Sequence record: MN158208.1
Reading direction: 5' to 3' (one strand)
Source: Escherichia phage BEK6
Length of the DNA: 46,736 bases
Shown here one piece after another: positions 2,291 through 37,320 of this stretch; positions within the stretch are counted from its first letter, which is position 1; every line of letters begins with the position of its first letter. The notes beneath the pieces were generated by a model, which was given only the letters and a program-made list of their open reading frames with translations, ran no database searches and was not told the DNA's origin. The translations under genes and the position numbers were made by a program.

Positions 2291-3559
2291 ATGGTCAAGA
2301 CAGACAGCTACGCCAATATCTTTCTAGGCGGCAGTGATGGTAGTGAGATTTACGGGAGCTTGCAGAACCAAGACCCTACAATTCTGGCTTCGATTTATGC
2401 GGATAATGCGCTGGTGCGTAGAATTATCGACACAATCCCAGAGACAGCGCTAGCGGCAGGATTCCACATTGATGGCATTGATGATGAACCTGCATTCTGG
2501 TCTCGATGGGATGATTTAGAAATGACGCGGAATATTAACGATGCCTGGTCATGGGCCAGATTGTTCGGCGGAGCTGCTATTGTAGCTATCGTTAAGGACA
2601 ATAGGGCGCTAACAAGTCCAGTCAGAGAAGGTGCTGAGCTTGAAACCGTTCGCGTTTACGACCGTACGCAGGTAAAAGTACAAACTCGCGAGGAGAACCC
2701 ACGCAACGCACGCTTTGGTAAGCCGTTAACCTATCGCATCACCACAAATGAGAGCGATATGTTCTACGATGTGCATTACAGCCGCATTCACATTATTGAC
2801 GGAGAGCGAATCCCTAACGTAATGCGTCGACAGAATGATGGCTGGGGCCGCAGCGTTCTCTCTAGTGATATTCTTGACTCAATCAAGGATTACACCAACT
2901 GCGAACGACTGGCCACCCAACTGCTGAAGCGAAAGCAGCAAGCGGTGTGGAAAGCGAAAGGACTGGCTGAGTTGTGTGATGATAGCGAAGGATTCGGCGC
3001 GGCTCGATTACGACTTGCGCAGGTTGACAACAATAGCGGCGTTGGCCAGGCAATTGGCATTGATGCGGAATCTGAAGAATATAGCGTTCTGAACTCTGAT
3101 ATTGGCGGGATTGATGCGTTCCTGGATAAGAAGTTTGACAGAATCGTCGCACTGAGCGGCATTCATGAAATCATCCTGAAGAACAAGAACGTTGGCGGCG
3201 TATCCTCAAGCCAGAATACAGCGATGGAGACATTCCACAAGCTAATTGACCGCAAGCGTAACTCTGAACTGCTTCCTGTTCTTGAGTTCCTAATCCCGTT
3301 CATTGTTAACGTTGACGAATGGTCAGTTGAGTTTTATCCCCTAGCGCAGGAATCAAGTAAGGATAAAGCTGAGATTTTGCAGAAGAACGTAAGCAGCATC
3401 GCGGCGCTAGTTGCATCTGGCGTTATGGATATTGATGAGGCGAGAGATACATTGCGTGCAGTCGCTCCAGAGGTTAAGATTAGTGATGGTTCAGTAGAGA
3501 CAGAGGTGACGATTAGTGAAACCAGTAGCGACCAGCTGGAAGTACCCGCAGACAATTGA
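2291..3559 (+). CDS. portal protein
   Basis: ~420-aa ORF immediately after terminase; GGAGAAAAAC-ATG start preceded by hairpin plus T-run; assigned by position and size. Confidence 0.7.
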   Translation: MVKTDSYANIFLGGSDGSEIYGSLQNQDPTILASIYADNALVRRIIDTIPETALAAGFHIDGIDDEPAFWSRWDDLEMTRNINDAWSWARLFGGAAIVAIVKDNRALTSPVREGAELETVRVYDRTQVKVQTREENPRNARFGKPLTYRITTNESDMFYDVHYSRIHIIDGERIPNVMRRQNDGWGRSVLSSDILDSIKDYTNCERLATQLLKRKQQAVWKAKGLAELCDDSEGFGAARLRLAQVDNNSGVGQAIGIDAESEEYSVLNSDIGGIDAFLDKKFDRIVALSGIHEIILKNKNVGGVSSSQNTAMETFHKLIDRKRNSELLPVLEFLIPFIVNVDEWSVEFYPLAQESSKDKAEILQKNVSSIAALVASGVMDIDEARDTLRAVAPEVKISDGSVETEVTISETSSDQLEVPADN

Positions 3560-4244
3560 GAGCCAGGTTAACCGCAATCTAAGTATTGCGGTAACTGAGT
3601 TAATTTCAGCAATGAAGGAGTCAGCAACAAGGCTTAAAATTGATAGTGCAGATGACCTTGAGGAGGAGGATGGATACCTTGACGGGGTAATTGCGGCATT
3701 GGTAGCGTCCTTTATATCAAAAATCCCAGCCATAGGGGCGGCGATATACAGATACAATAGCTCGCAATTTCTTGTGCTTGCAATAAAGACCGGAGGAAGG
3801 TCCAATCCTAGCGTTCTGAACCTTGAGGTTAACGGCATCAATGGTGATGAGCTGTGGTATAATGATGACCTAAATCAGTGGATTTACACCACTAATAAGT
3901 CAGCGATTAAATTACTGAATAACATTAAAGATGATTTCTTGCAGACGGCTGCAACAATGCAGAATGGAGATTACGTAAATCTATCTGACAGGTACAAGGT
4001 CTACAGAAAGAGAACAGCAAACATTGCTTCCGGTATTGTTTCAAGTCTGAATTCGACACTTATGAGACGCAGGCTTGAAGATGCTGGTGTTAGCCGTTAC
4101 ATCTGGCATGGCATGCTGGACGATAGGGAGCGCCAATCGCATATAGCGAGAGAGGGCCTTAGCTTTAAACTAGGTGGTAACGATATATTTCCAGGTCAAG
4201 AATACGGTTGTCGTTGCTGGTCGGTTCCAGATTGGGAATCATAA
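3516..4244 (+). CDS. head morphogenesis protein (Mu gpF / SPP1 gp7-like)
   Basis: C-terminal signature DDRERQSHIAREG...GQEYGCRCW typical of Mu F-like minor head proteins; GTG start with GAGGTGA RBS overlapping the portal 3' end (ATG 3612 is an alternative). Confidence 0.65.
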   Translation: MKPVATSWKYPQTIESQVNRNLSIAVTELISAMKESATRLKIDSADDLEEEDGYLDGVIAALVASFISKIPAIGAAIYRYNSSQFLVLAIKTGGRSNPSVLNLEVNGINGDELWYNDDLNQWIYTTNKSAIKLLNNIKDDFLQTAATMQNGDYVNLSDRYKVYRKRTANIASGIVSSLNSTLMRRRLEDAGVSRYIWHGMLDDRERQSHIAREGLSFKLGGNDIFPGQEYGCRCWSVPDWES

Positions 4245-35935: not shown

Positions 35936-36109
35936 ATGGTTAAATTATTTTGCATTAAGAACACATCCAAGACACTGCCATTTGCAGTCAATCAGCCGTA
36001 CAATGCAGAGTACCGTGGTGACGGATATTACAAGATTTACGGCGACGATATGACGCACATCTTAGCGCCGATTGATGGTTCGTTGGTTGAATTTATTATC
36101 GCTGACTAG
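35936..36109 (+). CDS. hypothetical protein
   Basis: 57-aa ORF with AGGA RBS after a degenerate palindrome module; the longer track ORF 35774 overlaps the upstream gene. Confidence 0.4.
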   Translation: MVKLFCIKNTSKTLPFAVNQPYNAEYRGDGYYKIYGDDMTHILAPIDGSLVEFIIAD

Positions 36110-36135: not shown

Positions 36136-36161
36136 GGGGAGCCTTTTGGCTCCCTTTTTTT
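36136..36161 (+). terminator. rho-independent terminator before the lysis cassette
   Basis: GGGGAGCC-tttt-GGCTCCC followed by TTTTTTT. Confidence 0.65.
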
Positions 36162-36239
36162 ATGCTTCTTTTCCGAGCGGTGCTAATGTATCATTATTTT
36201 ATTAACTTAAACATTGACAAATACATAAAGGTGGATCAC

Positions 36240-36455
36240 ATGAGGGAAGTAATCAACGCCGCTACGGCATCAACCGGCGGGGCTGCGGTAACTGGCGCAG
36301 CAACTGGTCAAATGACTATAGCAATAATCAGCCTTATCGCTCTAATCATTTTTGGAGCCTGGGGTGCTTACTGGAAGTATAAGGATAGCCAGGCTATTCG
36401 CAGAGCGCTTGAATCGGGAGACTTGAAGGCAGCAATCAATATAAGGAGTAAATAA
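36240..36455 (+). CDS. holin (pinholin-like)
   Basis: 71 aa; Gly/Ala-rich first hydrophobic segment then strongly hydrophobic TMD (MTIAIISLIALIIFGAWGAYW), charged C-terminus; AAGGTGG RBS; immediately upstream of the endolysin. Confidence 0.5.
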   Translation: MREVINAATASTGGAAVTGAATGQMTIAIISLIALIIFGAWGAYWKYKDSQAIRRALESGDLKAAINIRSK

Positions 36456-36941
36456 ATGAAGCAGAAGCTGCTAATTAGCGCGGCTACGGCTGCGGCGATA
36501 TACATCGCAGCGCCGCTTATTGAGCTCGTTGAGGGTGTGGAGAATAAGCCTTACATGGACATTGCCGGAATCCCTACAGTTTGTTCCGGTATTACCGGTC
36601 CAGATGTGGTCTGGGGTAAAGCGTACAGCAACAGGGAGTGCCGTAACCTGCTGGAGAAACACATCCAGATTCATGCCAAGTATGTTCAGGATGCGGTTAC
36701 CTACCCAATCGCACCGCAGACAAGGGCAGCGTTAATTAGCTTTAGCTACAATGTTGGTGGTTCTGCCATGAGGAAATCTACTGCCGTTAAGTTAATTAAC
36801 CAGGGTAAGATTGAGCAAGGTTGTAAGGCTTTGGGTCTTTGGAATAAAGTTACCGTTAATGGCAAAAAGGTTGTCGTTAAGGGGTTAGTGAATCGCAGGA
36901 ATGAGGAGATTAAGTTATGCTTAAGCGGATTGCAGCGTTAG
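36456..36941 (+). CDS. SAR endolysin (T4-lysozyme-like muramidase)
   Basis: N-terminal weakly hydrophobic signal-anchor-release-like segment (LLISAATAAAIYIAAPLI) followed by E-x8-D-x5-T catalytic pattern (ELVEGVENKPYMDIAGIPTVCSGIT). Confidence 0.75.
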   Translation: MKQKLLISAATAAAIYIAAPLIELVEGVENKPYMDIAGIPTVCSGITGPDVVWGKAYSNRECRNLLEKHIQIHAKYVQDAVTYPIAPQTRAALISFSYNVGGSAMRKSTAVKLINQGKIEQGCKALGLWNKVTVNGKKVVVKGLVNRRNEEIKLCLSGLQR

Positions 36942-37306
36942 TAATGTGCGTAGCTTTATCTGGATGTTCGGCAACATCTGCTCTGACTGGTTTAATTGGC
37001 AGTAAGCCAGAGATTAGCGCTCAAGCTGGTGCAGAGAACAATAAGGTTGGTGTCGGGTTAACGAACAAGGTTGACTCCAGTAACTCCAGCGATGCTTCCG
37101 TTAAGGATTCTAGCGTAGGCTCTCTGGATAGCTCGAGCGGAAAAAAGACTGCTGACAACTCGATTAAGGCCTCAACAATCACTGCCGAAAAGATTGAAAT
37201 TACCAATAACGAATCATCAGCGCTTCCGTGGGTTGGAACGGGAGCTATGGGTGTGCTGGTTTTAATTCTCATGGCATTAATCTTAAGACGTAAAAAAGCC
37301 TCCTAA
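36917..37306 (+). CDS. unimolecular spanin (T1 gp11-like)
   Basis: N-terminal lipoprotein signal with LSGC lipobox plus C-terminal transmembrane helix (GAMGVLVLILMALIL) and basic tail; overlaps the endolysin 3' end. Confidence 0.65.
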   Translation: MLKRIAALVMCVALSGCSATSALTGLIGSKPEISAQAGAENNKVGVGLTNKVDSSNSSDASVKDSSVGSLDSSSGKKTADNSIKASTITAEKIEITNNESSALPWVGTGAMGVLVLILMALILRRKKAS

Positions 37307-37320
37307 TGGAGGCTATTTCT
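37292..37320. terminator. bidirectional terminator between spanin (+) and minus-strand gene
   Basis: AGCCTCC-taat-GGAGGCT with A-run upstream and T-rich downstream; spanin stop codon lies in the loop. Confidence 0.55.

What the first reader, a model, noticed from the sequence alone, without database searches (positions are those of the whole stretch)
36240..37306. Lysis cassette: pinholin-like holin, SAR endolysin and unimolecular spanin
The 71-aa holin has a Gly/Ala-rich first hydrophobic stretch followed by a strongly hydrophobic helix. The lysozyme has a weakly hydrophobic N-terminal segment (LLISAATAAAIYIAAPLI) ahead of the E-x8-D-x5-T catalytic pattern, as expected for a signal-anchor-release endolysin. 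The third gene encodes one polypeptide with both a lipoprotein signal (LSGC) and a C-terminal transmembrane helix, the architecture of the T1 gp11-type unimolecular spanin. That architecture is rare and supports the T1-like assignment.
Basis: partly seen in the sequence, partly recalled or inferred. Interest (0 to 1): 0.5.

Follow-up and report, generated by a model that had tools for sequence, protein, structure and literature searches.

The report
Ordinary T1-type phage lysis cassette
These three genes are the standard host-bursting module of a T1-like E. coli phage (membrane-hole protein, self-exporting lysozyme, one-piece outer-membrane disruptor), already described in close relatives, so the finding is correct but ordinary.

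Summary
There are three tightly packed + strand genes: holin 36240-36455 (71 aa), endolysin 36456-36941 (161 aa) and unimolecular spanin 36917-37306 (129 aa). They sit between two intrinsic terminators.

Each gene is a clear homologue of phage T1 gp13/gp12/gp11 (58%, 46% and 37% identity) and shows the same synteny. The window is about 90-93% identical in DNA to known Drexlerviridae (Braunvirinae) phages such as DTL and BEK1-1.

- **Spanin:** it has an LSGC lipobox (Cys17, Ser at +2) and a C-terminal transmembrane helix. Both are conserved across the family.
- **Endolysin:** it is a GH24 lysozyme closest to the solved SAR endolysin R21. E26/D35/T41 align to R21's catalytic triad, and the N-terminal segment is Ala-rich and Cys-free.
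- **Holin:** it belongs to the T1-type family (phrog_2877). It shows no detectable homology to the phage 21 pinholin, so "pinholin" rests on architecture, on its pairing with a SAR endolysin, and on published prediction, not on experiment.
- **Rarity claim:** the statement that the spanin supports a T1-like assignment is only partly right. gp11-family spanins also occur in Autographiviridae podophages.

Novelty: already known. Interest is low.

The parts
36136..36162 (+). Intrinsic terminator (8-bp GC-rich stem, T-run) that closes the upstream unit just before the lysis cassette
   Evidence: Terminator scan. A hairpin plus T-run sits at the same relative position in DTL, T1, AKS96, Sd1, SXFY507, GJL01, EcL1 and atuna. 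It is annotated as a terminator in AKS96.
36189..36194 (+). Candidate -10 element TATCAT, 46 nt upstream of the holin start (inferred, low confidence)
   Evidence: A TAnnAT element is conserved downstream of the terminator in 8 of 9 aligned relatives. There is no good -35, and the sigma-70 scan did not flag it.
36240..36455 (+). Holin, 71 aa, T1 gp13 family. Residues 4-22 are the Gly/Ala/Ser/Thr-rich stretch (nt 36249-36305), residues 25-45 are the transmembrane helix (nt 36312-36374), and the C-terminal tail is charged.
   Evidence: phrog_2877 holin 8.7e-37, covering 1-71 of 71. 58% identity to T1 gp13. Hydropathy. Family alignment with invariant G14, F38, G39, G42. SD AAGGTGG at 36228-36234.
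36456..36941 (+). SAR-type GH24 endolysin, 161 aa. The signal-anchor-release segment is residues 5-22 (nt 36468-36521). Catalytic residues are E26 (36531-36533), D35 (36558-36560) and T41 (36576-36578).
   Evidence: PF00959 2.4e-34. Best solved relatives are RrrD 4zpu and R21 3hde at about 1e-26, with the triad aligned. 46% identity to T1 gp12. E26/D35/T41 are invariant in the family and there is no Cys in the first 25 aa. Relatives are annotated 'SAR endolysin'.
36917..37306 (+). Unimolecular spanin, 129 aa, T1 gp11 family. The lipoprotein signal is residues 1-16 with lipobox LSGC; Cys17 is at nt 36965-36967. The periplasmic domain is residues 18-103. The C-terminal transmembrane helix is residues 104-123 (nt 37226-37285), followed by the basic tail RRKKAS. 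The gene overlaps the endolysin gene by 25 nt.
   Evidence: phrog_1804 5.3e-49. 37% identity to T1 gp11, E 2e-24. The lipobox Cys is invariant in 32 of 32 family representatives and the C-terminal helix is present in 30 of 32. SD GAGGAG at 36903-36908.
37297..37314 (.). Bidirectional terminator hairpin overlapping the spanin stop codon. It separates the cassette from the convergent minus-strand genes.
   Evidence: The terminator scan hits both strands. Terminators are annotated at the equivalent position in T1 and AKS96.
35936..36109 (+). 57-aa DUF7244 (standalone SH3-like) gene directly upstream. It is a proposed but unproven accessory of the Drexlerviridae lysis module.
   Evidence: PF23896 6.6e-30. 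47% identity to T1 gp14. Proposal made in PMC13164509.

Best explanation
This is the late lysis cassette of a T1-like (Drexlerviridae, Braunvirinae) coliphage. It works in three steps.

1. During late infection the endolysin is exported by the host Sec system through its N-terminal, Ala-rich signal-anchor-release segment. It accumulates tethered to the periplasmic face of the inner membrane, where it is inactive. The catalytic Glu26 lies only four residues from the membrane segment.
2. The 71-aa holin accumulates in the inner membrane and, at a set time, collapses the proton motive force. It probably does this as a small-hole 'pinholin' whose Gly/Ala-rich first segment leaves the bilayer. Depolarisation lets the endolysin slip out of the membrane, refold and cut the murein.
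3. The unimolecular spanin is anchored in the outer membrane by its lipidated Cys17 (Ser at +2, so it is sorted by Lol) and in the inner membrane by its C-terminal helix. Once the murein mesh is gone it is free to act, and it destroys the outer membrane, most likely by fusing the two membranes.

What is shown here: gene order, homology, the motifs and their conservation.

What is shown for homologues in the literature: T1 gp11 complements a lambda RzRz1 defect, and T1 endolysin lyses E. coli without a holin.

What is inferred: the SAR release mechanism, small-hole formation by the holin, and membrane fusion.
For: - **ORFs, ribosome-binding sites and motifs:**
- **Homology to T1 gp13/12/11 with the same neighbours** (DNA-repair exonuclease upstream, convergent helicase downstream).
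- **Family assignments:** PHROG and Pfam.
- **Closest solved structures** are the SAR endolysin R21 and its prophage twin RrrD. The alignment runs into the SAR region and the catalytic triad is aligned.
- **Family conservation:** the triad; the lipobox Cys and C-terminal helix; the holin's compositional pattern.
- **Holin segment 1** is as weakly hydrophobic as the proven SAR-like TMD1 of S21 (summed dG +6.7 against +6.4). The endolysin N-terminus is +3.7, against -1.5 to -3.7 for true TMDs.
- **Literature:**
  - All but two members of the T1gp11 family sit in pinholin + SAR endolysin cassettes, and gp11 complements RzRz1 (PMC6139136).
  - T1 and TLS holins are predicted to be class II pinholins, and gp12 a predicted SAR endolysin (PMC11447400; PMC4319613; PMC13164509).
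  - T1 endolysin expressed alone lyses E. coli within 2 h, whereas the T7 endolysin does not (PMC10954549).
Against: - No experiment exists on these proteins or, as far as the searched literature shows, on the T1-type holin's hole size or topology.
- The holin has no detectable homology to S21, and there is no loop between its two hydrophobic stretches.
- T1 and AKS96 depositors annotate a single TMD.
- AlphaFold gave no confident fold for the spanin periplasmic domain (pLDDT <50 for residues 30-87). The published 'beta-rich' description could therefore not be confirmed.
- The window's endolysin N-terminus is more hydrophobic than T1's (+3.7 against +6.8), so release kinetics may differ.
Confidence: 0.88

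Rival explanations
1. The cassette is as described, but the holin is not a two-helix pinholin. Instead it is a single-pass (N-out, C-in) holin of its own class. Its Gly/Ala-rich N-terminal 24 residues are periplasmic from the start, and its hole size is unknown.
For: - Only one segment passes a transmembrane threshold (best 19-residue hydropathy windows: KD19 2.28 at 25-43, at most 0.8 for residues 1-22).
- The two stretches are separated only by 'GQ'.
- T1 and AKS96 records annotate one TMD.
- There is no homology to S21/PF04971.
- The family has its own Pfam and PHROG families.
- T1 holin alone is only weakly toxic (PMC10954549).
Against: - S21's TMD1 is just as weakly hydrophobic yet does insert.
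- Rogunavirinae members have a polar 'SDN' break between the stretches.
- The partner enzyme is SAR-type, which needs only depolarisation.
- The Young lab and other annotators predict a class II pinholin.
- 3 of 10 family members weakly hit phrog_20, the PHROG that contains S21 (best E 2.5e-4).
Confidence: 0.25
2. The endolysin N-terminus is an ordinary cleavable Sec signal peptide, giving a secreted soluble lysozyme, rather than a signal-anchor-release domain.
For: - There is a basic n-region (MKQK), a hydrophobic core, and an AAA run at residues 12-14.
- The segment is more hydrophobic than T1 gp12's.
- One relative (Citrobacter phage Sazh) is annotated 'putative soluble endolysin'.
Against: - Pro20 follows the only late Ala-Ala pair, which disfavours cleavage.
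- No Ala-x-Ala site is conserved in the family alignment.
- The catalytic Glu26 is four residues after the hydrophobic stretch, so cleavage would leave little N-terminal structure.
- The alignment to R21 extends into its SAR domain.
- Close relatives are annotated as SAR endolysins.
- No signal-peptide predictor was available, so this rival was not formally tested.
Confidence: 0.06
3. The third ORF is a lipoprotein with another role (for example superinfection exclusion) rather than a spanin.
For: Some depositors call homologues 'lipoprotein', 'putative membrane protein' or 'hypothetical'.
Against: - It is homologous to T1 gp11, which complements the lambda RzRz1 defect (PMC6139136).
- It occupies the last position in the lysis cassette in all Drexlerviridae relatives examined.
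- The dual-membrane anchors are conserved.
- T1 spanin is strongly lytic when expressed.
Confidence: 0.02

Closest known systems
Phage T1 lysis cassette gp13 (holin) - gp12 (endolysin) - gp11 (u-spanin), NC_005833
   Same: - Same three genes, order, lengths (71/162/133 aa against 71/161/129) and neighbours.
- 58%, 46% and 37% identity.
- Same LSGC lipobox, the same E-x8-D-x5-T triad, and terminators in the same places.
   Different: - The proteins are moderately diverged.
- The endolysin and spanin genes overlap by 25 nt here, against 1 nt in T1.
- The endolysin N-terminus is more hydrophobic here.
- There is no HNH endonuclease gene between the exonuclease and the cassette.
Lysis cassettes of Escherichia phages DTL (Loudonvirus, Braunvirinae), BEK1-1 and the vB_EcoS-12210I group
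   Same: - 90-93% DNA identity across the cassette.
- The spanin is 94-97% identical.
- These are effectively the same genes.
   Different: - The sequences are not identical.
- DTL RefSeq annotates a 97-aa holin (non-conserved upstream start) and a 120-aa spanin starting at Met10, which removes the signal peptide's basic n-region. The starts used here are better supported.
Phage 21 pinholin S21-68 / SAR endolysin R21 system
   Same: - The endolysin is a true homologue of R21 (E about 1e-25, triad aligned, Cys-free SAR segment).
- The holin has the same size, the same weakly hydrophobic first segment and the same charged C-terminal tail.
   Different: - The holin is not detectably homologous to S21.
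- It has no dual-start motif.
- It has no loop between its segments.
- Phage 21 uses a two-component embedded spanin (Rz/Rz1), not a u-spanin.
gp11-family u-spanins of Autographiviridae (Klebsiella phage KpV71, Dickeya phage BF25/12)
   Same: Homologous u-spanin, 33-50% identity over nearly the full length.
   Different: The gene order is spanin-holin-endolysin, the holin and endolysin partners differ, and the genome is that of a podophage.

Membership tests
T1 gp11-type unimolecular spanin | N-terminal lipoprotein signal with a lipobox Cys | tested here: met
   The N-terminus is MLKRIAALVMCVALSGC, with LSGC and Cys17. The aligned Cys is invariant in 32 of 32 family representatives.
T1 gp11-type unimolecular spanin | Outer-membrane sorting (no Asp at +2 after the lipidated Cys) | tested here: met
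   Ser18 is at +2. The family has S/A/N/G/T at this position and never Asp.
T1 gp11-type unimolecular spanin | C-terminal transmembrane helix followed by a basic cytoplasmic tail | tested here: met
   WVGTGAMGVLVLILMALIL has Kyte-Doolittle mean hydropathy 2.38 and summed dG -1.8, followed by RRKKAS. The helix is present in 30 of 32 representatives.
T1 gp11-type unimolecular spanin | Sequence homology to T1 gp11 | tested here: met
   BLASTP 37% identity, E 2e-24. phrog_1804 5.3e-49.
T1 gp11-type unimolecular spanin | No periplasmic cysteine (unlike two-component spanins) | tested here: met
   Cys occurs only at residues 11 and 17. The criterion is from PMC6139136.
T1 gp11-type unimolecular spanin | Periplasmic domain predicted to be mainly beta strands | tested here: inconclusive
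   AlphaFold2 with a 32-sequence alignment gave pLDDT <50 for residues 30-87 and called no strands.
T1 gp11-type unimolecular spanin | Complements a lambda RzRz1 lysis defect / disrupts the outer membrane | not testable with these tools
   Shown only for T1 gp11 (PMC6139136; PMC10954549).
SAR endolysin, R21 type | GH24 / T4-lysozyme-like catalytic domain with an E-x8-D/C-x5-T triad | tested here: met
   PF00959 2.4e-34. E26/D35/T41 align to the R21 triad and are invariant in 6 relatives.
SAR endolysin, R21 type | N-terminal weakly hydrophobic transmembrane segment rich in Gly/Ala/Ser/Thr, preceded by basic residues | tested here: met
   The N-terminus is MKQK-LLISAATAAAIYIAAPLI, 47% G/A/S/T, with summed dG +3.7 against -1.5 to -3.7 for true TMDs in the same cassette.
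SAR endolysin, R21 type | No cysteine in the SAR segment (this distinguishes the R21 type from the disulfide-caged P1 Lyz type) | tested here: met
   No Cys in the first 25 residues here or in 5 relatives. The four Cys positions match R21's.
SAR endolysin, R21 type | Holin-independent export, membrane tethering, and release on depolarisation | not testable with these tools
   There is only indirect support: T1 gp12 alone lyses E. coli (PMC10954549).
Pinholin (class II holin, S21 / PF04971) | Sequence membership of the S21 family | tested here: not met
   No PF04971 hit at E<=0.1. BLASTP E 4.9. hhalign family-against-family probability 0.95%. Only weak phrog_20 hits, in 3 of 10 members.
Pinholin (class II holin, S21 / PF04971) | Two transmembrane segments, the first SAR-like and able to leave the membrane | tested here: inconclusive
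   Segment 1 (dG +6.7, 79% G/A/S/T) matches S21 TMD1 (+6.4). It abuts segment 2 without a loop and falls below any TMD threshold.
Pinholin (class II holin, S21 / PF04971) | Paired with a SAR endolysin | tested here: met
   The adjacent gene is an R21-type endolysin.
Pinholin (class II holin, S21 / PF04971) | Forms nanometre-scale holes that depolarise the membrane but do not pass proteins | not testable with these tools
   No experimental report on T1-type holins was found.
T1-type holin (phrog_2877; PF27028 in the precomputed annotation) | Full-length match to the family profile and to T1 gp13 | tested here: met
   phrog_2877 8.7e-37 over 1-71 of 71. 58% identity to gp13. Homologues carry PF27028. 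817 phage records hold a homologue.

The most novel reading that the evidence does not exclude
The T1-type holin (phrog_2877/PF27028) is present in more than 800 Drexlerviridae genomes but is experimentally uncharacterised. It may be neither an S21-like pinholin nor a canonical holin. It could be a distinct single-pass class in which a periplasmic, conserved small-residue zipper (A7-S11-A15-G19-G23) and an invariant F38-G39-x-x-G42 hinge drive oligomerisation. The upstream DUF7244 SH3-like protein could be a genuine fourth lysis component.
Probability: 0.2. Interest if true: 0.35.

Novelty: already known. Interest (0 to 1): 0.1.

Why it matters
The finding matters little beyond correct annotation. 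It confirms that this genome carries the standard Drexlerviridae lysis module and fixes the likely true start codons: a 71-aa holin and a 129-aa spanin with a complete signal peptide. One RefSeq relative has both starts wrong.

The only open biology it touches belongs to the whole family, not to this locus. The T1-type holin has never been shown experimentally to be a pinholin. How the u-spanin's periplasmic domain acts is also unknown.

Tried and rejected
1. **Homology between the T1-type holin and the phage 21 pinholin.** BLASTP, Pfam and hhalign, both family against single sequence and family against family, were all negative. Only weak phrog_20/phrog_1350 hits appeared in a minority of members. 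This is treated as no detectable homology.

2. **TatA-like reading of the holin** (a short TMD, an FG hinge and an amphipathic helix). Marginal hits appeared to Pfam TatA_B_E (E 0.019) and TIGR01411 (0.084). Only 2 of 10 family members hit, and a family profile found no TatA among solved structures. The idea was dropped as compositional.

3. **AlphaFold2 of the u-spanin with 32 family sequences**. Mean pLDDT was 58.9 and the periplasmic domain was unmodelled. No fold search was run because the model is unreliable.

4. **The longer 97-aa holin ORF from ATG 36162**, as annotated in DTL. It was rejected for three reasons: it has no Shine-Dalgarno sequence, it starts inside the terminator T-run, and the in-frame upstream region is not conserved and carries stop codons in Sd1, AKS96, atuna and GJL01.

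5. **The sigma-70 promoter scan** found no convincing + strand promoter ahead of the holin. The best hit is on the minus strand and is probably chance.

6. **The J Virol paper on T1 gp11 localisation** (PMC6206483) is not held in the library.

7. **No TMHMM, SignalP or LipoP was available.** Topology calls rest on hydropathy scripts and regular expressions.
Full report
**Observation**

The ORF list and the raw sequence show three abutting + strand genes at exactly the reported coordinates.

| Gene | Coordinates | Length | Shine-Dalgarno and junction |
|---|---|---|---|
| Holin | 36240-36455 | 71 aa | AAGGTGG, 5 nt upstream of the start |
| Endolysin | 36456-36941 | 161 aa | Its ATG immediately follows the holin stop; TAAGGAG 7 nt upstream |
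| Third gene (spanin) | 36917-37306 | 129 aa | GAGGAG 8 nt upstream; overlaps the endolysin's last 25 nt in another frame |

- **Holin.** The Gly/Ala/Ser/Thr-rich stretch VINAATASTGGAAVTGAAT (79% small residues) is followed directly by MTIAIISLIALIIFGAWGAYW.
- **Endolysin.** It begins MKQK-LLISAATAAAIYIAAPLI and carries E26-x8-D35-x5-T41.
- **Third protein.** It has the lipobox LSGC with Cys17, Ser at +2, and a C-terminal hydrophobic helix (about 104-123) followed by RRKKAS.

The unit is bracketed by an intrinsic terminator at 36136-36155 and by a bidirectional hairpin over the spanin stop codon at 37297-37314.

**Identity**

All three proteins match lysis families with very small E-values:
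- phrog_2877 holin, 8.7e-37.
- phrog_7 endolysin, 6.3e-48.
- phrog_1804 'Rz-like spanin', 5.3e-49.
- Pfam Phage_lysozyme, 2.4e-34.

I fetched phage T1 (NC_005833) and compared gene by gene. The window's proteins match gp13, gp12 and gp11 as follows.

| Window gene | T1 counterpart | Identity | BLASTP E |
|---|---|---|---|
| Holin | gp13 | 58% | 1e-31 |
| Endolysin | gp12 | 46% | 4e-45 |
| Spanin | gp11 | 37% | 2e-24 |

Synteny is the same as in T1. A DNA-repair exonuclease and a small ORF lie upstream, and a convergent hypothetical gene and a helicase lie downstream.

At the DNA level the cassette is 93% identical to Escherichia phages BEK1-1 and DTL (Loudonvirus, Braunvirinae, Drexlerviridae). 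It is about 90% identical to the vB_EcoS-12210I group, where the middle gene is annotated 'SAR endolysin'. The first 25 kb of the window is about 90% identical to the same phages. The window is therefore a T1-like siphophage genome and the cassette is orthologous to a described one.

**The spanin**

An exhaustive search of 50%-identity cluster representatives found a compact family of 42 clusters.

In an alignment of 32 full-length representatives:
- The lipobox cysteine is invariant.
- A TAQ-GAEN-KQ motif follows it.
- 30 of 32 have a C-terminal hydrophobic helix with a basic tail. The two exceptions look truncated or frameshifted.
- No member has Asp at +2, so outer-membrane sorting is expected.
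- The window protein has no periplasmic cysteine. Kongari et al. give this as a hallmark of u-spanins (PMC6139136).

The same paper reports that T1 gene 11 complements the lambda RzRz1 defect. It also reports that all but two members of the T1gp11 family sit in pinholin + SAR endolysin cassettes.

AlphaFold2 on the family alignment modelled only the signal peptide and the C-terminal helix. Residues 30-87 had pLDDT below 50. I could therefore neither confirm nor contradict the published beta-rich prediction.

**The endolysin**

- **Closest structures.** The closest solved structures are E. coli RrrD (4zpu) and the phage 21 SAR endolysin R21 (3hde/3hdf), at E about 1e-26. The alignment runs into R21's SAR region and places E26/D35/T41 on R21's catalytic residues.
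- **Conservation.** In six diverse Drexlerviridae homologues the triad and four cysteines are invariant. The N-terminal segment varies in sequence but keeps its character.
- **Regulation type.** None has a cysteine in the first 25 residues. This fits the R21 type of regulation rather than the disulfide-caged P1 Lyz type. The distinction is from established knowledge.
- **Hydrophobicity.** The true TMDs of the holin and the spanin score -1.5 and -1.8, R21's SAR segment scores +0.8 and T1 gp12's scores +6.8. 'Weakly hydrophobic' is fair.
- **Experimental support at the homologue level.** T1 endolysin expressed alone lyses E. coli within about 2 h, whereas the cytoplasmic T7 endolysin does not (PMC10954549). 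This is the behaviour expected of a self-exporting enzyme.
- **Cleavable signal peptide.** This alternative is unlikely. Pro20 follows the only late Ala-Ala pair, there is no conserved AxA site, and the catalytic Glu lies four residues after the segment. No dedicated predictor was available to test it formally.

**The holin**

This is the least secure part of the interpretation. The family is widespread, with homologues in 817 phage records of Drexlerviridae size. Its compositional pattern is conserved, with G14, F38, G39 and G42 invariant.

Evidence for a pinholin reading:
- The first stretch is as weakly hydrophobic as TMD1 of the experimentally defined pinholin S21-68 (+6.7 against +6.4). 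I confirmed the S21 sequence against the phage 21 record.
- Published annotations call T1, TLS, Stevie and KanT1 holins class II pinholins.

Evidence that keeps the question open:
- There is no detectable homology to S21. BLASTP gave E 4.9. There was no PF04971 hit, and homologues carry a separate family, PF27028. hhalign between family alignments gave probability 0.95%.
- Only a minority of members weakly hit phrog_20, the PHROG that contains S21.
- The two stretches are separated by only Gly-Gln.
- Depositors of T1 and AKS96 annotate a single TMD.
- I found no experimental work on T1-type holin topology or hole size. T1 holin alone is only weakly toxic.

'Pinholin-like' is therefore a reasonable, published but untested functional prediction. 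The protein is not a member of the S21 family.

**Start codons**

- **Holin.** DTL RefSeq annotates a 97-aa holin from the upstream ATG that corresponds to window 36162. That holin start lies in the terminator's T-run and has no Shine-Dalgarno sequence. Its in-frame extension is not conserved and is interrupted by stop codons in several relatives.
- **Spanin.** DTL RefSeq also annotates a 120-aa spanin starting at the equivalent of Met10. That start would delete the basic n-region of the signal peptide, whereas ATG 36917 has a strong GAGGAG.

**The 'rare, supports T1-like' claim**

U-spanins are a minority type: 58 of 677 genomes in 2018. gp11-family homologues now occur in 1046 phage records. 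These include Autographiviridae such as Klebsiella phage KpV71 (Drulisvirus) and Dickeya phage BF25/12 (Stompvirus), where the order is spanin-holin-endolysin. The spanin alone does not diagnose a T1-like phage. The holin family and the DNA identity do.

**Mechanism (inferred from the families)**

1. Sec-dependent export tethers the endolysin to the membrane through its SAR segment.
2. The holin triggers and depolarises the membrane.
3. The endolysin is released, refolds and degrades the murein.
4. The spanin is lipid-anchored in the outer membrane and helix-anchored in the inner membrane. Once the murein is gone it is free to act, and it disrupts the outer membrane, probably by fusing the two membranes.

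Only the anatomy and the homology are shown here.

**Surroundings**

The 57-aa ORF at 35936-36109 is a DUF7244 protein (6.6e-30) and is 47% identical to T1 gp14. A 2026 paper proposes this standalone SH3-like protein as an auxiliary lysis component (PMC13164509). It has no signal sequence and is separated from the holin by a terminator. With a pinholin, it would therefore not reach the murein before lysis. I regard its lysis role as unproven.

An alignment of the terminator-to-holin spacer in nine phages shows a conserved TAnnAT element (TATCAT at 36189-36194). This could be a -10 box for the cassette. It has no good -35, and the scan did not flag it.

**Verdict**

The feature is already known, so interest is low.

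Noticed in passing
window 35936-36109 (+): A 57-aa DUF7244 (standalone SH3-like) gene, homologous to T1 gp14, lies between the DNA-repair exonuclease and the holin. A 2026 paper proposes it as an accessory of the Drexlerviridae lysis module. It has no signal peptide, and a terminator separates it from the holin, which sits awkwardly with a murein-binding role before lysis.
   Followed up: partly
L001 (Escherichia phage DTL, NC_047893) 2563-2856 and 3345-3707, equivalent to window 36162 and 36944: The RefSeq annotation of the closest relative appears to mis-start two genes. The holin is extended to 97 aa from a non-conserved upstream ATG inside the terminator T-run. The spanin is shortened to 120 aa, losing the signal peptide's basic n-region.
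   Followed up: yes
window 36156-36239, especially 36189-36194: Downstream of the terminator and about 46 nt before the holin start, a TAnnAT element (TATCAT here; TGgTATTAT in AKS96 and Sd1) is conserved in 8 of 9 Drexlerviridae spacers. It may be a -10 box for a dedicated lysis promoter. There is no convincing -35.
   Followed up: partly
L010 (Klebsiella phage KpV71) 2501-3741; L011 (Dickeya phage BF25/12) 2501-3690: gp11-family u-spanin homologues occur in Autographiviridae podophages with a different order (spanin-holin-endolysin). This implies that the spanin gene has moved between phage families independently of the T1-type holin.
   Followed up: partly
database hits H57, H59 (Campylobacter phages A113, A14a), H77 (Pseudomonas phage PsgS01F, PP134917): Records labelled as Campylobacter (21 records) or Pseudomonas syringae phages carry this E. 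coli T1-like cassette, with up to 96% holin identity. This suggests contamination by T1-like coliphages or mislabelled hosts in those deposits.
   Followed up: no
window 36917-37306 (spanin residues 30-87): AlphaFold2 with a 32-sequence family alignment gives pLDDT <50 and no secondary structure for the Ser-rich periplasmic domain. The literature predicts beta strands. The domain may fold only on oligomerisation or be intrinsically extended.
   Followed up: partly
window 36240-36455 (holin residues 23-40): There are marginal matches to TatA/TatE models (Pfam E 0.019; TIGR01411 E 0.084), and an invariant Phe-Gly follows the transmembrane helix, reminiscent of the TatA hinge. Only 2 of 10 family members hit and no solved TatA matched the family profile, so this is probably compositional.
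   Followed up: yes
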